Shown: positions 8,342-61,940, counted from the stretch's first letter. The stretch is 64,000 bases of DNA from Minisyncoccota bacterium (GCA_041661795.1 JBAZTS010000002.1:36263-100262); one strand, 5' to 3'. The notes: generated from the sequence alone by a model not told the origin. Numbers and translations are program-made.

Positions 8342-8956
8342 ATGGCCATAAAAAAGGATTACTTGTTGGTGTCTCTTATTGGACTGCTCTTTGGGTTGTT
8401 CTCGGCTCCTATTATAAAAAATCTAAATCTCTCATTTTTACCTTTTAGCTGGGTCGCTGTCATTGTTATTGTTGTATTGTTTACTTTGGGAGCTCCCGTT
8501 GCTCTTTTTATAGCGTCTTTTGTCGGCAAGAAAATTCCTGTCATTTTTCAATTTGCCAAATTTGCGGCTGTTGGAGCATTAAATACATTCGTTGATTGGG
8601 GAATATTGAACTTTTTAATATTACTAACTGGAACTGTTACCGGAGTAGGTTTTAGTATTTTTAAAGGAATTTCTTTCCTGTTTTCTGCGTCTAACAGTTA
8701 TGTTTGGAATAAATTTTGGACTTTTGGAGCAACTAATAAAGAAAATTCAGGAAAAGAATTTGGTAAGTTTATTATTATTAGTTTGATAGGATTTCTAATA
8801 AATGTAGGAGTGGCTTCTTTCATAGTAAATTATATATCTCCCTTCGGTGGCTTTTCTTTGACTCAGTGGGCTAACTTAGGAGCTTTGGTGGCTACTTTAG
8901 TGGCTCTTGTCTGGAATTTTGTGGGTTATAAGTTCTTTGTGTTTGACAGTAAATAA
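8342..8956 (+). CDS. GtrA-family membrane protein
   Basis: KFAAVGALNTFVDWGILNFLI…YVWNKFWTF is the GtrA-family signature; four TM helices. Confidence 0.65.
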   Translation: MAIKKDYLLVSLIGLLFGLFSAPIIKNLNLSFLPFSWVAVIVIVVLFTLGAPVALFIASFVGKKIPVIFQFAKFAAVGALNTFVDWGILNFLILLTGTVTGVGFSIFKGISFLFSASNSYVWNKFWTFGATNKENSGKEFGKFIIISLIGFLINVGVASFIVNYISPFGGFSLTQWANLGALVATLVALVWNFVGYKFFVFDSK

Positions 8957-9036
8957 AAAAGAGAGTATAATGCCTCTTGAGTGAAGTGCCGAGCAGCCCT
9001 CTGCGATGATATCGATAGAGGATTGCCCTTTCGTTT

Positions 9037-9067
9037 CCCTCCGCCCTCGGGCGGAGGGTTTTGTTTT
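9037..9067 (+). terminator. rho-independent terminator (CCCTCCGCCC-loop-GGGCGGAGGG followed by a T-run)
   Basis: Perfect 10-bp GC stem followed by TTTTGTTTT, downstream of the GtrA-like gene. Confidence 0.7.
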
Positions 9068-9175
9068 CATATATGTTTTTTGTTATTATATTAGTGGTGG
9101 TGGGAGAGCACTCACTCATAATAAAAAAACGGAGGTCACCCCCGCCACCATGAAATATAAGGTTCTCATTTAGTT

Positions 9176-22071: not shown

Positions 22072-22418
22072 AAAGATAAGTGAGTGATTGCCCTGACATT
22101 TGTTGGGGAGGAAAGTCCGGACTCCCATCTCCGACGTAACGTCGGAGTAAACGTATTCGCTAACAGCGAACTATCGCAAGATAAGAGGTGCGAACAGAGA
22201 CGAGTCCTAATGGAAACATTAGGGGTGAAACGGTCCCGACGCCTATTTCGGGTTAGGGACTCCGACATCCGCAAGGATCGTCGGAGCTAAATCCTTGCGG
22301 GGTGCAAGACCGTATCCGCCCAGGGCGGGTGAGTCGCTTGAACCTGAGAGTAATTGAAGGTCCAGACAAATAATCACTATCCCGACGTAACGTCGGGACA
22401 CAGAATCCGGCTTATAGC
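22072..22418 (+). ncRNA. rnpB: RNase P RNA (bacterial type A)
   Basis: P4 consensus GGAGGAAAGUCCGGACUCC at 22109-22127; ACAGAAUCCGGCUUAUAG (ACAGARxxGGCUUA) near the 3' end; P1 pairing AGAUAAG/CUUAUCU; GC-rich relative to its surroundings. Confidence 0.8.
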
Positions 22419-22500
22419 TTATCTAAACATATCAAGAATCTCTCCTTAACGGGGGGATTTTTGATTGATTTATTAAGGGTTTTTTGATACTTTTAACAAG

Positions 22501-38168: not shown

Positions 38169-39272
38169 CTATTTTAGATTCTCTATTATAGCTATCTCAA
38201 AGGGCACCAAGGGGAAAGGATTGTATTTCATTTGGGAGTAGGCGGTGATGAGCGCTTTTATAAGTTTTATCTGCTCGTCCGTATCTATTTTAGCCGAATG
38301 TTTTTTTATTTCTTTTATTTGGCTTTCGGCCAATTCCTTTTCAAATATCTTTTCCAGTTCCGGATTAAGATGTAAAGAAAGAACCCTTCTTAAATATTCT
38401 GTCAGATCTTTGTTAAATTGAAAAAGATTGTATCCCTGACTGTTTATTTCGTATAAAAATTCCAGCGACTTTTGTAAGTCCTTTTTTATGACCAAATCGG
38501 CCATTTTTATTGTTTTTAGAAAATCAACTTTTCCCAAGATGCTTTCCACGTATTCAACGGTAATATTCTTGCCCTTCATGGAAACAATCTGGTCAAAAAG
38601 AGATTCGGCATCTCTTAAACTTCCTTCAGCTAAAAAGGCAATCATTTCCAAAGCTTCTTTTTCGTATTCTACTTTTTCTTCTTTGGCGATAAATGAAAGT
38701 TTTTTTATAATCTCCTGTAGTGTCAGCTTTCTAAAATGAAATCTCTGGGTTCGGGAAACAATAGTGGGAGGGAGCTTGTCGTATTCGGTGGTGGCTAATA
38801 TAAAAACGGCATGGGCTGGCGGTTCTTCTAAAGTTTTTAAAAGAGCGTTAAATGCCTGTGGAGTGAGCATGTGAACTTCATCTATGATAAAGATTTTGTA
38901 TTTAAGATAAGAGGGGAGTGTTTTTATGTTTTCTTTGAGATTTCTTATTTCATCTATTCCTCGGTTGGAAGCGGCGTCAATTTCAACGACATCCAAAGCT
39001 CTGCCTTCTTCAACTTGTAAACAGGCGTGACATTCTCCACAGGGCTCTCCTTGCTTGGCAAAGTTTTCGTCCTCTTGTCTTTTCTGGCAGTTAATTATTT
39101 TGGAAAAGATTCTGGCGATAGTTGTTTTGCCGGTTCCTCTTGAACCGTAGAAAAGATAGGCATGAGAAATTTTACCTTCCTTAACTGAATTTTGAAGTAT
39201 GGTAACCGTATTTTCCTGACCGTAAATATCAGCAAGTTTTTTTGGTCGGTATTTTCTATAAATAGCTAACAT
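38169..39272 (-). CDS. dnaX: DNA polymerase III subunit gamma/tau (short form, 367 aa)
   Basis: KYRPKKLADIYGQENTVTIL…GSRGTGKTT (Walker A), Zn module CGECHAC, DEVHML, SRTQRF sensor. Confidence 0.85.
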   Translation of the reverse strand: MLAIYRKYRPKKLADIYGQENTVTILQNSVKEGKISHAYLFYGSRGTGKTTIARIFSKIINCQKRQEDENFAKQGEPCGECHACLQVEEGRALDVVEIDAASNRGIDEIRNLKENIKTLPSYLKYKIFIIDEVHMLTPQAFNALLKTLEEPPAHAVFILATTEYDKLPPTIVSRTQRFHFRKLTLQEIIKKLSFIAKEEKVEYEKEALEMIAFLAEGSLRDAESLFDQIVSMKGKNITVEYVESILGKVDFLKTIKMADLVIKKDLQKSLEFLYEINSQGYNLFQFNKDLTEYLRRVLSLHLNPELEKIFEKELAESQIKEIKKHSAKIDTDEQIKLIKALITAYSQMKYNPFPLVPFEIAIIENLK

Positions 39273-39278
39273 ATCAAT

Positions 39279-39315
<37 letters not shown>

Positions 39316-39324
39316 GCTATGAAA

Positions 39325-39366
39325 TAAAAAAAGCCCGCCGGTGTCTTCCGAGGAAGTCCTGGCGGG
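39325..39366 (-). terminator. intrinsic terminator of the minus-strand GC-rich transcript
   Basis: Minus-strand RNA …CCCGCCAGGACUUCC-UCGG-GGAAGACACCGGCGGG followed by UUUUUUU. Confidence 0.65.
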
Positions 39367-39922
39367 GTGGAACAGGTGGTGCGACCTTAGCTCACTCGGT
39401 GCTGTCGAGTTCGCTCGCCCGATATACTCTCCGGGTGATACGAGAGCTCGAATCTGCCGAGACGTGACGCGTGGTCACTTTTTGCTAAGGTTTTTTGGGG
39501 TGCTGCTCCTCTTCCTGTTCGGTACTTTCTAAGAACGGTTCCCACACCGTTCTCGCCGGCGAGCTTAGCTCGCGCAGGGTAGAGGCGCCTCCTAAAGGAG
39601 GCAAAACATGAGTACAAATTCGGAATTGGATTTTTGTGAGTTTCCGGACTCACTATCTCGTTTGGTGCACCTCCCGAGAAGTCCTTTTCCTTCCACTTAT
39701 TATTGGGCCAGTTTGAGATCAGCGGTGGACACTCAAACTGTTTGCGTGCTTTCACCGAGCTTGCCGGATTTACTCGGATCTTTGGTGAGATGGCGCAACC
39801 CCACAGTTTTGACCTCCCTCAGCTGCGCGCGCAACTGAGTTGTCAGCTCACCTAGTGACAGAGGCCCCCTTTTTGACCGTTTTTTCTTCTTGGTCCGGAA
39901 GGGTTTCCGTGCTACATTTTTA
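39335..39922 (-). ncRNA. unclassified GC-rich structured transcript (~590 nt) upstream of and co-directional with dnaX; candidate SRP RNA, tmRNA or other ncRNA
   Basis: Consensus promoter (TTGACA-N16-TATAAT at 39930-39957, minus strand) and intrinsic terminator; 55-60% GC; many hairpins (CCUCCuuuaGGAGG, GCGAGCuaaGCUCGC, GAGAACGGUgugggaACCGUUCUU); no convincing long ORF. Confidence 0.4.
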
Positions 39923-39929
39923 TGCCTGT

Positions 39930-39957
39930 ATTATACTCCTTTTGTTTTATTTGTCAA
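39930..39957 (-). promoter_or_regulatory. consensus sigma70 promoter (TTGACA-N16-TATAAT) on the minus strand
   Basis: Reverse complement of 39930-39957 reads TTGACAaataaaacaaaaggagTATAAT. Confidence 0.6.
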
Positions 39958-40020
39958 GTACCCATAATAAAGTTCTAAAAACCTTGGAATTTAGTGTTTT
40001 TGGCTATATAATTAATTAGT

Positions 40021-40737
40021 ATGTTTGAAATGAAGTCGGTTGAGTTCTCTGGGCCCCTGGACAAGCTTTTGGAACTTATTGAGGGGAAAAAAATGGATAT
40101 AACCAGAATCAGTTTAGCCGAAGTGACGGCTGATTTTTTGACATATCTTAAAGACCTAACGCAGGCAAATCAAGAAAATAAAAATGACTCTCTTTCAAGA
40201 ATAATAGCTGATTTTTTAGTGGTGGCTTCTCAATTGATTTTGATAAAATCTAAAGCTATACTGCCCGAGATAGAACTTTCTGAAGAGGAAGAGGAGAGCA
40301 TTCAAGATTTGGAGAAACGCTTGGAGCTTTACAATCAAATCAAACCGATGTTGGCTGTCTTAAAAAAATCGTGGAAAGAAAACAGTCCCTCTTTTTCAAG
40401 AGAAATGTTTTCTTCAATACAACCGGTTTTCTATCCTCCCTTAAAAATTTCAATAAATGACTTAAAACTTTCACTGCAGTCGCTGGTTGATTCGCTGGGA
40501 TCATTTATTCTGGAAACGGAAAAGATAGAAAGACAAATATTTACGCTGGAGGAAAAAGTGGCAGAACTTTCCCAAAGAATTACAGATGGGATTTCAAAGT
40601 TTTCCCAGGTTATTTCAAAGAAATCAAGACAGGAGGCGATTGTTATGTTTTTAGCCCTGCTTCACTTGTTAAGAGATCAGGTTCTAAGAGTCAAACAATC
40701 GGAAATTTTTAAAGAAATAGAATTAGAAAGAGTATAA
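40021..40737 (+). CDS. scpA: segregation and condensation protein A
   Basis: MFEMKSVEFSGPLDKLLELIEGKKMDITRISLAEVTADFLTYL…: ScpA N-terminal consensus. Confidence 0.75.
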   Translation: MFEMKSVEFSGPLDKLLELIEGKKMDITRISLAEVTADFLTYLKDLTQANQENKNDSLSRIIADFLVVASQLILIKSKAILPEIELSEEEEESIQDLEKRLELYNQIKPMLAVLKKSWKENSPSFSREMFSSIQPVFYPPLKISINDLKLSLQSLVDSLGSFILETEKIERQIFTLEEKVAELSQRITDGISKFSQVISKKSRQEAIVMFLALLHLLRDQVLRVKQSEIFKEIELERV

Positions 40738-54842: not shown

Positions 54843-54871
54843 TTGACTTATTAGTAATAATATGATATACT
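54843..54871 (+). promoter_or_regulatory. consensus sigma70 promoter TTGACT-N17-TATACT preceding the GC-rich membrane-protein gene
   Basis: ttgact tattagtaataatatga tatact; a ~90-nt structured GC-rich leader follows. Confidence 0.55.
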
Positions 54872-54962
54872 CAAAACAAGTTTCGAAACCGCTTCACTGC
54901 CGTGAACAACACTACAGAAAGAGCGGTCGGAGCACTGCTCTTTCACAGAAAGGGGAACTTCG

Positions 54963-55361
54963 ATGAGTGGGATCGCTTGGTTTTTCGAGGTGTTCGCTCT
55001 GCTGTTTTTCGTGGGGACTCTGGGCGTTGCTTTCATCGGACGCCGCATCCTCAAGGCGGAGCAGGAGTCGTCGGTTCTGATGTCTTTCCTCCAGATCTGC
55101 AGTGGAGCGCTCTTCATCTTCTACGTTTTCGGACTGGGTCAACTCATGGCTCTGTCTGGACTGGAAGGTGCAAGGGCGCCCCGGTGGCTGATTCCGGGCA
55201 CCTACATCACTCTCACCATCTTCAGCGCGTTGACTCGGCTGGCTCTTCCAAGGTGGGGCAGTGACAACAAAGCGATGCAACTCTGGAGTGTCGTCAGCGT
55301 CCTGACGTTCCTACTCGGCACGTTCTGCCTCGGGGCGTACTCGTCCAACTACTTCGAGTAG
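54963..55361 (+). CDS. GC-rich (~58% GC) 4-TM membrane protein of unknown function
   Basis: AAAGGGGAAC RBS before the ATG at 54963; four hydrophobic helices; terminator hairpin at 55386-55420; overlapping alternative-frame ORFs were rejected. Confidence 0.4.
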   Translation: MSGIAWFFEVFALLFFVGTLGVAFIGRRILKAEQESSVLMSFLQICSGALFIFYVFGLGQLMALSGLEGARAPRWLIPGTYITLTIFSALTRLALPRWGSDNKAMQLWSVVSVLTFLLGTFCLGAYSSNYFE

Positions 55362-55385
55362 GTCTCCTTCTTCAGCTCTTCAACT

Positions 55386-55420
55386 GGCGGCGTCTCTCAC
55401 GAGGCGCCGCACTGCTTTTT
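55386..55420 (+). terminator. intrinsic terminator (GGCGGCGucucucacgagGCGCCGC followed by a T-run)
   Basis: GC stem followed by ACTGCTTTTT. Confidence 0.55.
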
Positions 55421-57306: not shown

Positions 57307-57417
57307 AGGGAGTATATATGATTAAGAATATTAAATAATTATCATAGAGTTATTATGATTATAGATTGATTTTATCGTTTTAATTAAAGAGTGCCTTATA
57401 AATTAGCACGGACCGCT

Positions 57418-57570
57418 TTATGGGCGGTCCGGGATGGGTGGAGCGGGTGCGGGCTTGACCACTTTGGCCACGAGGCCGATTAATATGGTCAGCATTGAAA
57501 CGGGTACTACGGTGGCGATGATGACGGACGATTCCACCACCACCAGAGACCACTTGACTAGGTAGTGCAT
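57418..57570 (-). CDS. GC-rich 50-aa hydrophobic peptide (MHYLVKWSLVVVESSVIIATVVPVSMLTILIGLVAKVVKPAPAPPIPDRP)
   Basis: AGGAGG 4 nt upstream of the ATG; single TM; terminator hairpin GGACCGC/GCGGUCC overlaps the stop codon. Confidence 0.3.
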   Translation of the reverse strand: MHYLVKWSLVVVESSVIIATVVPVSMLTILIGLVAKVVKPAPAPPIPDRP

Positions 57571-57689
57571 TCAACCTCCTTTCTTCTGAGAATCTTGGTG
57601 ATCCACAGATAGAGGTTGTATCCTGTTTGAATAACGTGGGCCATCTTTTGGCCCAGTATTGTCGTCCGATGAAACGTTGTTGTAGACAT
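57558..57689 (-). CDS. GC-rich 43-aa peptide (MSTTTFHRTTILGQKMAHVIQTGYNLYLWITKILRRKEVECTT)
   Basis: AAAGGAGAC RBS 5 nt before the ATG; the downstream part of the listed 57558..57860 ORF, whose upstream part is the wrong frame of the neighbouring gene. Confidence 0.25.
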   Translation of the reverse strand: MSTTTFHRTTILGQKMAHVIQTGYNLYLWITKILRRKEVECTT

Positions 57690-57703
57690 CACGTCTCCTT
57701 TGG

Positions 57704-57949
57704 TTAGGCGATGGCGCCGGGGTATTCTTCGGAGATCTTCTCGATCTCTTTTTCCTCTTTCTTCACTTGGTCTGTGAGCACAAGGAAGAAAAAGATGATG
57801 GCCATGATTCCCACAAGAGTGGCAAAGGCCCATGAAAAGCTCTTGGGGAGTTGGAACCATCGTGATAAGTGATATCCTCCAAAAGTGAGAATTACCACGG
57901 CCACGGTCGCTCCAACTTTACGGAGCAAGTTGAGTAGTCCCGGGAACAT
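57704..57949 (-). CDS. GC-rich 81-aa 2-TM protein
   Basis: AAGGAGG RBS 6 nt before the ATG; two hydrophobic helices. Confidence 0.3.
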   Translation of the reverse strand: MFPGLLNLLRKVGATVAVVILTFGGYHLSRWFQLPKSFSWAFATLVGIMAIIFFFLVLTDQVKKEEKEIEKISEEYPGAIA

Positions 57950-58193
57950 TACTCTCCTCCTTTTTGGTGTACATCTTTCGAAGTTTCTCCTGTAGAGCGT
58001 TGAGCCCCGTGAAGACCAGGGCTCCGGTCAGAAACCCGATACAAGCCAACGATCCTCGGATCTCCAATCCTGGAGGCAGTGGAACTCGGTCTGCCCATAG
58101 GACCGTGAAGAAACAGGAAGCAGCAGTTGAAAGGCCAACGAAAGTGAACCAAACCACTCTTGCGATCAACTCCAGAACTTTTCCGATTTTCAT
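57918..58193 (-). CDS. GC-rich 91-aa 2-TM protein
   Basis: GAGGAGG RBS 7 nt before the ATG; first gene of a 4-ORF GC-rich micro-operon. Confidence 0.3.
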   Translation of the reverse strand: MKIGKVLELIARVVWFTFVGLSTAASCFFTVLWADRVPLPPGLEIRGSLACIGFLTGALVFTGLNALQEKLRKMYTKKEESNVPGTTQLAP

Positions 58194-58280
58194 GCTCTGA
58201 TCCTCCTCTGTTTTTCACATTATAATAATCATTGAATTTTGTCCATGTTTGATTTAGAATAACCCTTTGGTTGGCATTTT

Positions 58281-61193: not shown

Positions 61194-61411
61194 AGATAAT
61201 AATCATCGTAAAACCAAATAAAAAAGAAAATAAGGTTGTGAAAATAGGAGAGAACATTTTTGAAATTTATACGAATCAACCGGCTAAAGAAAATAAAGCC
61301 AATTTGGATATTATTCAACAAATGTCCAAGTATTTTAAAGTATCAAAATCAAAGGTTTCTATATCTTCCGGATTAAAGTCAAAGAAGAAAATTTTGGAAA
61401 TAAATATATAA
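61190..61411 (+). CDS. DUF167 (YggU-like) family protein
   Basis: 73 aa; …KANLDIIQQMSKYFKVSKSKVSISSGLKSKKKILEI matches the DUF167 C-terminal consensus (AN…L…VxKsxVxIxxGxxSRxK). Confidence 0.65.
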   Translation: MKIIIIVKPNKKENKVVKIGENIFEIYTNQPAKENKANLDIIQQMSKYFKVSKSKVSISSGLKSKKKILEINI

Positions 61412-61443
61412 AAAAAGGGGGCTCCCGGTGTTGCTGGGAGCCC
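61410..61443 (-). terminator. intrinsic terminator of the minus-strand GC-rich transcript (GGGCUCCCagcaacaccGGGAGCCC followed by UUUUUUU)
   Basis: Seen on the reverse complement; it also caps the convergent DUF167 gene. Confidence 0.6.
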
Positions 61444-61940
61444 AAAGTGCGGTAAGGAGGTCAATGTACGATGCGGTGCCTGCCGTGCGTCGCTTCGCTC
61501 GTTCGGGTCTTGGTGGTTCAGATCAGGGCCAGTCGTGCCCGAAAACTTAACTTTCTGGCCCATTGCTTCTCGGCACGCATGGTTTCTCCTTGCATGGATT
61601 TTTGGTCCACGCAGCTCTGCCCTCAGCGCTTGACGGTGGCCTCGTCGTTGGTGCGGTGGTTGTTCTGACGCTGTTGCATGGGATTTCTCCTCGCGTGAAC
61701 GTCGTCGGTTGTTGGTGCTAGCTATGGCTCAAGTCAAGCTTTCTTTTCGGTGAGCTTGACGAGCAGTGCTAGCGCCTGTTCTGGGTTTCGTTTTTTATCG
61801 GTATAACCTTCACAAGGTTATACCAGGGTTTCCTTCCTGATTGGCGGTCAAGAAGGTTGTTTAATCATCCAGCATTGTCCTAACTAACGGAACGGCGGTT
61901 CGACGTCCACGTGCATCGCTTTCCTCCTTATGTAGTTTAC
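61443..61940 (-). ncRNA. GC-rich (~57% GC) transcript with only mini-ORFs (10, 18 and 20 codons, each with a strong SD); function unknown
   Basis: Promoter TTGACT-N17-TATCCT (minus strand, 61948-61976); first mini-ORF UAAGGAGGAAAGCG-AUG (MHVDVEPPFR); ends at the terminator at 61410-61443. Confidence 0.35.

What the first reader, a model, noticed from the sequence alone, without database searches (positions are those of the whole stretch)
39325..39960. Strongly expressed-looking ~590-nt GC-rich transcript upstream of dnaX with a consensus promoter and terminator but no credible ORF
On the minus strand a textbook TTGACA-N16-TATAAT promoter (39930-39957) drives a 55-60% GC region that ends in a classic intrinsic terminator (39325-39366) just upstream of dnaX. 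The region is full of stable hairpins (CCUCCuuuaGGAGG, GCGAGCuaaGCUCGC, GAGAACGGU…ACCGUUCUU). The scr(SRP RNA)-dnaX linkage is classical in Firmicutes, so an SRP RNA is one possibility. I could not recognise the domain-IV GGAA tetraloop motif with confidence, and the length is too large for 4.5S or 6S and longer than typical tmRNA. RNase P RNA is already accounted for at 22072-22418. It may be a large or unusual SRP RNA, a tmRNA precursor, two adjacent ncRNAs, or a novel ncRNA.
Basis: partly seen in the sequence, partly recalled or inferred. Interest (0 to 1): 0.6.

Follow-up and report, generated by a model that had tools for sequence, protein, structure and literature searches.

The report
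Orphan 600-nt structured RNA gene

Summary
On the minus strand a perfect TTGACA-16-TATAAT promoter (39957-39930) is followed by about 598 nt of 52-57% GC sequence (genome 36%) and a -18.9 kcal/mol intrinsic terminator (39366-39326). The dnaX start codon lies 54 nt further on. The unit is non-coding: it shows no 3-nt periodicity, has no ATG/SD ORF, and no credible protein homologue. It is not SRP RNA, tmRNA, 6S, RNase P, OLE, ROOL, GOLLD or any other Rfam 15 family (nothing real at E<=10), and ARAGORN finds nothing. The host is a Candidatus Paceibacterota MAG.

Relatives with 76-79% DnaX identity keep the scpA<->dnaX synteny. In that spacer they carry differently sized units (about 175, 290 and 600 nt) with the same promoter, GC-rich hairpin body and terminator, co-oriented with dnaX. 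These units share no detectable sequence with each other or with the window unit. Other relatives have an empty spacer.

My best reading is a stand-alone, lineage-specific structured ncRNA cassette in a fast-turnover slot. dnaX looks leaderless with its own promoter, so the unit is unlikely to be a dnaX leader. Function is unknown and no covariation test is possible. Interest is moderate.

The parts
39930..39957 (-). Sigma-70-type promoter TTGACA-16 nt-TATAAT with an A-rich spacer ending in GAG. The predicted start is about 39923-39925.
   Evidence: 12/12 match, one of only two in the window against 0.07 expected. The same promoter style (TTGACA, A-rich spacer, GAGTATAAT) drives the small RNA at 8975-9070 and unit 2 of L170.
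39326..39925 (-). Predicted primary transcript of about 598 nt: GC 52-57%, sense strand A 29 / C 27 / G 26 / U 18 %, a chain of about 12 mostly near-perfect hairpins joined by A-rich linkers.
   Evidence: No 3-nt periodicity (chi-square p=0.78). No Rfam family.
39818..39839 (-). Hairpin CUCAGUUGCGCGCGCAGCUGAG (9 bp, -14.8 kcal/mol).
39709..39740 (-). Hairpin CAGUUUGAG...CUCAAACUG (12 bp, -12.7 kcal/mol).
39636..39653 (-). Hairpin GUGAGU-CCGGAA-ACUCAC.
39587..39602 (-). Hairpin GCCUCCUUUAGGAGGC, an anti-SD-like CCUCC paired with an SD-like GGAGG. No start codon follows on this strand.
39531..39577 (-). Two adjacent hairpins, GCGAGC-UAA-GCUCGC and GAGAACGGU-GUGGGA-ACCGUUCUU (-12.0 and -13.2 kcal/mol).
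39381..39393 (-). Second copy of the internal 13-nt repeat GAGCUAAG(G/C)UCGC. The first copy is at 39559-39571.
   Evidence: family D4, 12/13 identical
39326..39366 (-). Intrinsic terminator: branched GC-rich stem 39366-39334, then C and U7.
   Evidence: -18.9 kcal/mol, 73% of the ensemble
39273..39313 (-). Context, not part of the RNA: 5 copies of the ACTTTAT tandem repeat carrying TTTATA-17-TATACT. The TATACT ends 7 nt before the dnaX ATG (39272) and there is no SD, which suggests dnaX has its own promoter and a leaderless mRNA.
   Evidence: The same TATACT-6/7 nt-ATG arrangement occurs in L085 and L092.
39984..40012 (+). Context: divergent scpA promoter TTGGAA-17-TATAAT, back to back with the RNA promoter. 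It is conserved in relative L086.

Best explanation
It is a stand-alone gene for a non-coding, hairpin-rich RNA of about 598 nt. Transcription starts at a consensus sigma-70 promoter and stops at an efficient intrinsic terminator, and the RNA itself is the product. It is not the dnaX leader, because dnaX appears to have its own proximal promoter and a leaderless start. It is an accessory, lineage-specific cassette sitting in a fast-turnover slot between the divergent scpA and dnaX genes, not a housekeeping RNA. Shown: the signals, the composition, the non-coding nature, the absence from known families, and the presence of non-homologous cassettes with the same architecture at the same place in relatives. 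Inferred: that it is made, that it is stable, and that it acts in trans. A role as a protein- or RNA-binding scaffold or sponge, using GC-rich hairpins separated by A-rich linkers, is a guess.
For: The 12/12 promoter is one of two in 64 kb against 0.07 expected, and both precede GC-rich terminated non-coding units. The strong terminator sits exactly at the end of the GC-rich block. GC is +16-20 points over the genome, like the RNase P RNA and tRNAs of the same window. Folding z is -4.5 to -5.2, or -3.05 without the terminator. Coding is excluded as far as can be tested: no periodicity in the whole unit or in the 122-aa and 76-aa ORFs (p=0.78, 1.0, 0.77), whereas dnaX, scpA and the GC-rich ORFs of islands I2 and I3 are strongly periodic. 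There are only 2 ATG codons on the sense strand, no Pfam hit, and no six-frame hit among 5.8 billion proteins. No gene was called here in the source assemblies. The unit is identical in two independent assemblies (ENA ERZ27249449 and Logan SRR6484324), so it is not an assembly artefact. Relatives carry units with the same promoter, GC-rich non-coding body and terminator, co-oriented with dnaX, in the same spacer. These are L085 (79% DnaX; TTGACA-17-TATACT, about 600 nt, z -7.5 to -8.2), L170 (76%; about 290 nt and about 175 nt, z -4.1 and -5.2) and L092 (59%; about 277 nt). dnaX has TATACT 6-7 nt before its ATG and no SD in the window, L085 and L092.
Against: No homologue was found anywhere, so there is no covariation or any other evidence of purifying selection on the RNA. 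Tests run: nhmmer, blastn and Smith-Waterman against 176 loci; phage and plasmid records and IMG/VR. Close relatives do without it: L086 (78%) and L087 (74%) have short AT-rich spacers, and L001 (73%) has different synteny. Structure evidence is moderate once the terminator is removed (z -3.05). The antisense strand folds even better. The GC-rich protein-coding islands I2 and I3 also score z about -3. Hairpins are near-perfect and mostly lack GNRA/UNCG loops, unlike old, ornate functional RNAs. The sense strand has C>=G and is U-poor. No expression data could be consulted.
Confidence: 0.55

Rival explanations
1. It is foreign or selfish 'moron-like' DNA with no host function. Under this view the island is a recently acquired GC-rich fragment (with or without its own promoter and terminator) from an unsampled phage, plasmid or donor. 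It is transcribed but neutral or decaying, and the slot is simply a permissive insertion site.
For: The window holds three more GC-rich orphan islands with their own promoter and terminator. I2 (54963-55361) is a 132-aa membrane-protein gene with GC3 0.74 against 0.35 in native genes, and its only database match is itself. I3 encodes small membrane proteins. I4 is non-coding. Presence, absence and replacement among relatives fit gain and loss. No conservation of I1 was found.
Against: There are no terminal repeats, target-site duplication or mobile-element genes. There is no match in 50,697 phage records, 72,556 plasmids or IMG/VR, and no six-frame protein match. The promoter lies in native-looking AT-rich DNA and shares its style with another RNA promoter in the same genome. 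A perfect promoter and terminator framing the block exactly is not expected for a random fragment. This rival overlaps the best explanation, because a functional ncRNA can also be of foreign origin.
Confidence: 0.22
2. It is a long structured 5' leader or attenuator of dnaX. Transcription from the strong promoter would be gated at the terminator to control dnaX.
For: The unit is co-oriented with dnaX and only 54 nt upstream. All five such units in relatives are also co-oriented with dnaX. Only weak promoter-like hexamers lie between the terminator and dnaX.
Against: dnaX carries a -10-like TATACT 6-7 nt before its ATG and no SD in three genomes. This is the leaderless arrangement, and it would not be translated well from inside a long transcript. 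Relatives express dnaX with a 131-nt AT-rich spacer and no island. The leaders would have to be non-homologous and range from 175 to 600 nt. No antiterminator alternative was seen. The co-orientation is equally explained by selection against antisense transcription into scpA.
Confidence: 0.08
3. It is a small-protein gene. Candidates are the 122-aa GTG ORF on the sense strand (39755-39387), the 76-aa ORF on the plus strand (39608-39838, preceded by AAGGAGG and 6 nt), or micro-ORFs.
For: The 122-aa ORF is somewhat longer than in shuffles (P=0.04). phmmer against 1.84 billion representatives gave three hits (best E=1.2e-12) to giant secretins, aligned at residues 58-114. The plus-strand ORF has a textbook SD and spacing.
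Against: None of these ORFs shows codon periodicity (p=1.0 and 0.77). The three hits are proteins with 6-18 tandem BON repeats. Each single stretch scores at most 33.5 bits at 31-39% identity, which is far from significant at library scale, and the total is inflated by summing near-identical repeats. The ORF does not match Pfam BON even at E<=10. The sense ORF has no SD or ATG. The plus-strand SD is just the mirror arm of the palindromic hairpin, and that strand has no promoter or terminator. L085's counterpart has no ORF either.
Confidence: 0.05
4. It is a highly divergent or expanded housekeeping RNA (SRP RNA, tmRNA or 6S) that escapes the models.
For: It occupies the classical scr position upstream of dnaX. 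One stretch, CAGGAAGAGGAGCAGCA, loosely resembles the SRP domain IV 3' side.
Against: No SRP, tmRNA or 6S model matches even at E<=10 with relaxed filters. The stretch cannot form the apical 3-bp plus GNRA hairpin that defines helix 8 (reading). ARAGORN is negative. The unit is not conserved among genus-level relatives. It is twice the length of large SRP RNA.
Confidence: 0.03

Closest known systems
Bacterial large SRP RNA (scr/ffs, Rfam RF01854) in its classical position upstream of dnaX
   Same: Both are stand-alone stable-RNA genes with their own promoter and terminator, GC-rich, immediately upstream of and co-oriented with dnaX. The linkage was verified here in L161 and L163.
   Different: No model match at any threshold, no domain IV (helix 8) motif, about 598 nt against about 270 nt, and not conserved even at genus level.
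Large GC-rich bacterial ncRNAs found as long GC-rich intergenic regions in AT-rich genomes (OLE of about 600 nt, ROOL, GOLLD, raiA; Breaker-lab approach, e.g. PMC11109978, PMC6429828)
   Same: Similar size (about 600 nt), a GC excess over an AT-rich genome, strong predicted structure, no ORF, own promoter and terminator.
   Different: No hit to any of those Rfam families. Those classes have highly conserved sequence blocks and covarying irregular helices, while this RNA has no homologue and consists mainly of simple near-perfect hairpins.
Phage 'morons': promoter-cargo-terminator cassettes of deviant base composition inserted between conserved genes (from general knowledge of lambdoid phage genomics)
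   Same: An autonomous unit framed by a sigma-70 promoter and a factor-independent terminator, composition far from its surroundings, inserted between conserved syntenic genes, and present or absent among relatives. The window's islands I2, I3 and I4 fit the same description.
   Different: It sits in a bacterial chromosome between core genes, not in a phage. The cargo is non-coding. No phage, plasmid or IMG/VR match.
Species-specific sRNA genes and type I toxin-antitoxin loci in variable intergenic slots
   Same: Lineage-restricted, highly structured transcripts with strong promoters in spacers whose content varies between relatives. Island I4 has a 5' SD that can pair with a 3' CCUCCUUA, reminiscent of the fold-back in type I toxin mRNAs.
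   Different: At about 600 nt it is far longer than typical sRNAs. No hydrophobic peptide ORF with a start signal and no antisense partner was seen in I1.

Membership tests
SRP RNA (RF00169 / RF01854 / RF01857) | Match to the covariance model at or near gathering score | tested here: not met
   No hit at gathering score or at E<=10 on 39200-40100. As a positive control, L163 scored 172 bits and L161 142 bits.
SRP RNA (RF00169 / RF01854 / RF01857) | Domain IV / helix 8: GNRA-capped 3-bp apical stem flanked by the CAGG/AGCA symmetric loop | tested here: not met
   The only look-alike, ACAGG-AAGAGG-AGCAGCA, has no room for the apical hairpin (sequence).
SRP RNA (RF00169 / RF01854 / RF01857) | Conserved among related genomes as a universal housekeeping RNA | tested here: not met
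   Absent or replaced by unrelated sequence at 73-79% DnaX identity.
tmRNA (RF00023 and permuted forms) | tRNA-like domain plus tag reading frame | tested here: not met
   ARAGORN finds only two tRNAs in the window. No Rfam hit.
6S RNA (RF00013) | Rod of about 185 nt with a central bubble; model match | tested here: not met
   No Rfam hit at E<=10. At 598 nt it is multi-hairpin, not a rod.
RNase P RNA | Model match | tested here: not met
   The genome's RNase P RNA is at 22072-22430 with 138.8 bits. There is no match in the island.
OLE / ROOL / GOLLD / HEARO / raiA and other large Rfam ncRNAs | Model match with conserved sequence blocks | tested here: not met
   cmscan of all 4227 Rfam 15 models at E<=10 gave only a chance HgcG hit in the AT-rich flank.
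Group I / group II introns and small ribozymes | Model match to catalytic cores | tested here: not met
   No hit.
Protein-coding gene | Three-base periodicity of composition | tested here: not met
   p=0.78 for the whole unit, 1.0 for the 122-aa ORF and 0.77 for the 76-aa ORF. Controls: dnaX 4e-11, scpA 2.5e-8, I2 ORF 1.7e-6.
Protein-coding gene | Homologous proteins or domains | tested here: not met
   No Pfam hit. Six-frame query against 5.8 billion proteins: none. The three phmmer hits are artefacts of summing repeats in BON-repeat secretins.
Independent intrinsic-terminated ncRNA gene (generic) | Own promoter, own terminator, non-coding body | tested here: met
Independent intrinsic-terminated ncRNA gene (generic) | Transcript actually made and stable | not testable with these tools
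   No expression data are available.
Conserved structured RNA family (any) | Homologues with compensatory base changes | tested here: not met
   No homologue was found, so no covariation test was possible.
Moron-like cassette | Promoter-cargo-terminator unit of deviant composition between conserved genes, variably present | tested here: met
Moron-like cassette | Resides in or derives from a phage or mobile element | tested here: not met
   No phage, plasmid or IMG/VR match, no flanking repeats and no mobile-element genes.

The most novel reading that the evidence does not exclude
The island may be one member of an unrecognised phenomenon in Paceibacterota. The spacer in front of the leaderless dnaX gene, and other spacers in the same genome, would act as slots for strongly expressed, GC-rich, hairpin-chain RNA cassettes that are swapped or rewritten so fast that genus-level relatives share architecture (consensus promoter, 175-600 nt structured body, terminator, orientation) but no sequence. 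Such hypervariable, highly expressed RNAs in an obligate episymbiont would point to a conflict- or host-interaction-related RNA function such as defence, a decoy, or an exported RNA, and not to housekeeping.
Probability: 0.3. Interest if true: 0.7.

Novelty: new member of a known kind. Interest (0 to 1): 0.45.

Why it matters
CPR/Patescibacteria have tiny genomes with little room for ballast, and almost nothing is known about their non-coding RNAs. This unit has the strongest promoter type in the window, is about 600 nt long, and takes up most of a core-gene spacer, yet it is invisible to every RNA family model. Its positional counterparts in sister lineages are unrelated in sequence. If the RNA is made and functional, it shows that these organisms keep lineage-specific large RNAs that turn over quickly. 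That is a cheap, testable entry point into CPR RNA biology, using metatranscriptomes from the same samples. If it is not functional, it documents repeated capture of GC-rich foreign DNA into core-gene spacers of a streamlined genome. Either way, the classical inference 'RNA upstream of dnaX means SRP RNA' fails here.

Tried and rejected
1. Rfam 15 at gathering score on the whole window, and at E<=10 on the island, on L085, on L170 and on I4: nothing real.

2. ARAGORN for tmRNA: none.

3. Homologue searches all came back empty:
- nhmmer, blastn and Smith-Waterman with shuffles, for the island and its counterparts against 176 fetched loci and the window: only self-hits. The shared 11-mer AGCAGCACCCC with L170 unit 2 is not significant.
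- Six-frame translation queried against 5.8 billion proteins, to catch spurious ORF calls over homologous RNAs: none.
- Exact-product look-up of the 122-aa ORF: not on record.
- IMG/VR with two 20-23-mers, and blastn against phage and plasmid collections: none.

4. phmmer of the 122-aa ORF against 1.84 billion representatives gave 3 hits to secretins with BON repeats. I rejected these as artefacts of summing repeats.

5. Enriched motifs across the non-coding islands: GCUAAG occurs 5 times against 0.5 expected and GCACC 10 against 2.4. Neither is significant after correcting for the number of k-mers tested.

6. ATG depletion: not significant with dinucleotide shuffles.

7. Flanking direct or inverted repeats as mobile-element ends: none.

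8. Origin of replication: no DnaA-box cluster or skew switch at the locus.

9. Similarity among the four GC-rich islands of the window: none.

Those relatives were recovered through the protein search plus contig look-ups instead.

11. A covariance model built from a single sequence was considered and not built, because the MFE fold of a 600-nt orphan is too uncertain for a negative result to mean anything.

Full report
WHAT IS THERE

Reading the minus strand of 39100-40300 shows, in order:
- the start of scpA on the other strand (40021);
- a perfect TTGACA-16-TATAAT promoter at 39957-39930;
- about 598 nt of GC-rich sequence;
- a branched GC-rich stem followed by C and U7 (39366-39326);
- five copies of ACTTTAT;
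- the dnaX ATG at 39272.

The consensus scan reports the promoter as 12/12. The pattern TTGACA-N16-18-TATAAT occurs only twice in the 64 kb on both strands, against 0.07 expected from shuffles. The terminator folds at -18.9 kcal/mol and takes 73% of the ensemble.

GC is 0.475-0.565 across the block. The flanks are 0.33-0.40 and the window as a whole is 0.359.

The whole unit folds at -212.9 kcal/mol, with z about -4.5 to -5.2. Much of that excess comes from the terminator, and without it z is -3.05. For scale, a dnaX coding segment gives +0.6 and the window's RNase P RNA gives -4.9. No internal promoter or minus-strand terminator divides the unit.

IT IS NOT CODING

- Base composition by codon phase is flat for the whole unit (p=0.78), for the 122-aa GTG ORF on the sense strand (p=1.0) and for the 76-aa plus-strand ORF (p=0.77). 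dnaX (4e-11), scpA (2.5e-8) and the GC-rich ORFs of two other islands (1.7e-6 and 2.6e-4) are strongly periodic.
- The sense strand has two ATGs, and neither has a ribosome-binding site.
- The plus-strand ORF's neat AAGGAGG-6 nt-ATG is the mirror arm of the palindromic hairpin GCCUCCUUUAGGAGGC. That strand has neither a promoter nor a terminator.
- Pfam finds nothing.
- A six-frame concatenate found nothing among 5.8 billion proteins.
- The assemblies' gene callers left the region empty.
- A full phmmer pass over 1.84 billion representatives gave three hits (best E=1.2e-12). All three are giant secretins with 6-18 tandem BON repeats, aligned to ORF residues 58-114 at 31-39% identity. The best single stretch is 33.5 bits, which is not significant at that library size, and the total is the sum of near-identical repeats. 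The ORF also fails to match Pfam BON at E<=10. I treat this as an artefact.

IT IS NOT A KNOWN RNA

Rfam 15 at gathering score finds only RNase P RNA (22072-22430) and two tRNAs in the window. At E<=10 with relaxed filters, the island yields one chance match in the AT-rich flank. ARAGORN finds no tmRNA.

Bacteria_large_SRP scores 172 and 142 bits immediately upstream of dnaX in the non-CPR loci L163 and L161. None of the about 40 CPR dnaX loci scanned has an SRP RNA there. The only SRP-like stretch in the island, ACAGG-AAGAGG-AGCAGCA, cannot form the GNRA-capped apical stem of helix 8.

WHO CARRIES IT

The DnaX, ScpA and ScpB neighbours and their best matches place the window in a Candidatus Paceibacterota (Patescibacteria/CPR) MAG. 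The same sequence, base for base, is in ENA ERZ27249449 (156-kb contig), in Logan SRR6484324 and in NCBI GCA_041664185.1. It is therefore not an assembly artefact, but there is also no strain variation to exploit.

WHAT RELATIVES SHOW

The nearest DnaX proteins in a 15-billion-protein collection are 79, 78, 76 and 74% identical. Their contigs keep the divergent scpA<->dnaX arrangement.

| Locus | DnaX identity | What lies upstream of dnaX |
|---|---|---|
| L085 | 79% | 756-nt spacer. TTGACA-17-TATACT, about 600 nt of 55% GC non-coding sequence, strong terminator, co-oriented with dnaX. z -7.5 to -8.2 |
| L170 | 76% | Two such units: about 290 nt and about 175 nt. The second has a promoter 24/28 identical to the window's |
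| L092 | 59% | One unit of about 277 nt |
| L091 | 59% | A tRNA-like unit |
| L086 | 78% | Short AT-rich spacer, no island |
| L087-89 | 74% | Short AT-rich spacer, no island |
| L172, L174 | 74-75% | A peptidase gene in the slot |
| L001 | 73% | Different synteny |

None of these units is detectably similar to the window's island or to one another. This was tested by nhmmer (also with --max), by blastn with word size 7, and by Smith-Waterman against dinucleotide shuffles. No k-mer is convincingly enriched across them. An orthologous housekeeping RNA would still be alignable at this distance. What is shared is architecture and position, not sequence.

RELATION TO dnaX

In the window, L085 and L092, a -10-like TATACT lies 6-7 nt before the dnaX ATG and there is no Shine-Dalgarno sequence. 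This is the arrangement of a leaderless mRNA with its own promoter. Relatives without an island express dnaX from a 131-nt AT-rich spacer. This argues that the island is an independent unit and not a dnaX leader. Its constant co-orientation with dnaX is explained as well by selection against antisense transcription into scpA.

GENOMIC CONTEXT

The window holds three more GC-rich orphan islands, each with its own promoter and terminator.
- I2 (54963-55361) is a 132-aa membrane-protein gene. Its GC3 is 0.74 and its only database match is itself.
- I3 (about 57400-58210) encodes three small membrane proteins.
- I4 (61405-61935, minus strand) is another non-coding, strongly folding unit of about 530 nt.
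- The only other perfect promoter in the window (8943-8971) drives a terminated, GC-rich small RNA of about 95 nt.

None of these resembles another. So this genome carries a set of autonomous cassettes of deviant composition, some coding and some not. That is formally like phage morons, but there is no phage, plasmid or IMG/VR match and there are no element ends.

INTERPRETATION

The best-supported reading (confidence about 0.55) is a stand-alone, lineage-specific gene for a structured RNA of about 598 nt, in a fast-turnover slot between scpA and dnaX. The signals, the non-coding nature and the exclusion from known families are shown. Expression, stability and a trans-acting role are inferred.

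Rivals:
- a functionless, transcribed foreign insert (0.22, partly overlapping the best explanation);
- a dnaX attenuator (0.08);
- a small-protein gene (0.05);
- a divergent housekeeping RNA (0.03).

The main weaknesses are the total lack of homologues (so no covariation evidence), the modest z-score once the terminator is removed, the better fold of the antisense strand, and the 'young-looking' perfect hairpins with few GNRA/UNCG loops.

NOVELTY AND SCORE

It belongs to no described family. As a kind, it is an orphan bacterial ncRNA gene revealed as a long GC-rich spacer in an AT-rich genome, which is a known category (PMC11109978, PMC6429828). The unusual part is the comparative pattern: the same slot and the same architecture with unrelated sequences. 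If that pattern is general, it would define a new class of hypervariable RNA cassettes in CPR bacteria (probability about 0.3). Overall interest is 0.45.

Noticed in passing
window 8943-9075 (+): This is the only other perfect TTGACA-17-TATAAT promoter in the window, again with an A-rich spacer ending in GAG. It drives a GC-rich RNA of about 95 nt that ends in the terminator CCCTCCGCCCTCGGGCGGAGGG plus a T-run, just upstream of a murB-like ORF. There is no Rfam hit at gathering score.
   Followed up: partly
window 61405-61935 (-): Island I4 is a second large (about 530 nt) GC-rich (53-56%) unit with no codon periodicity. It has a promoter-like TTGACT-17-TATCCT and a strong terminator, z -6.0 without the terminator, and no Rfam match at E<=10. 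It contains three SD+ATG micro-ORFs (10, 18 and 20 aa). Its 5' UAAGGAGG can pair perfectly with a 3' CCUCCUUA, like a fold-back that hides a ribosome-binding site.
   Followed up: partly
window 54845-55420 (+): Island I2 has a promoter (TTGACT-17-TATACT), a 132-aa four-helix membrane-protein ORF (54963-55361) and a terminator, lying between uvrB and uvrC. GC3 is 0.74 against 0.35 in native genes. Its only match among 5.8 billion proteins is itself, so it is an orphan gene that looks foreign.
   Followed up: partly
window 57400-58220 (-): Island I3 is a block of about 50% GC between a PaaX-like gene and uvrA. It carries three small hydrophobic ORFs (91, 81 and 50 aa), each with a GGAGG-type ribosome-binding site. 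There is no Pfam family above threshold. It could be a holin- or toxin-like membrane-peptide operon.
   Followed up: no
window 39273-39313; L085 3989-4003; L092 2489-2503: dnaX has a -10-like TATACT 6-7 nt before its ATG and no Shine-Dalgarno sequence in three related genomes, which suggests a leaderless dnaX mRNA in this clade. In the window the promoter lies inside five tandem ACTTTAT repeats, at which the Logan contigs break.
   Followed up: partly
L085 3282-3915; L170 753-1077 and 1100-1310; L092 2160-2471: These are positional counterparts of the finding in relatives: promoter, GC-rich non-coding body of 175-600 nt and terminator, upstream of and co-oriented with dnaX. All are mutually unrelated in sequence. 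L085's unit has the strongest fold (z about -8).
   Followed up: yes
L091 about 2255-2445: Upstream of dnaX in this relative (59% DnaX) there is a unit of about 170 nt with a promoter and a terminator. Its core looks like a tRNA with a long insertion in the anticodon region: GGGCUUGUAGCUCAA...UUCGGUUAAAAUCCGAA...GAGCUCACC.
   Followed up: no
L111 1330-1900: A more distant CPR genome (44% DnaX) has another orphan GC-rich (54% against 37%) non-coding island of about 570 nt. It lies one gene away from dnaX, has no Rfam hit, and folds with z -4.7 to -6.4.
   Followed up: partly
L085 5127-5486; L174 3633-3992: A 23S_rRNA_IVP / bAvd-family four-helix-bundle gene sits immediately downstream of dnaX in two relatives but not in the window. 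These genes are often linked to diversity-generating retroelements or rRNA intervening sequences.
   Followed up: no
L170 1400-1590: A long AT-rich tandem repeat (units of about 66 nt) and two DnaA-box-like TATCCAC(A/C) motifs lie between the RNA units and dnaX in this relative. There is no comparable cluster or skew switch at the window locus.
   Followed up: partly
Absence from those scans is therefore not evidence of absence.
   Followed up: yes
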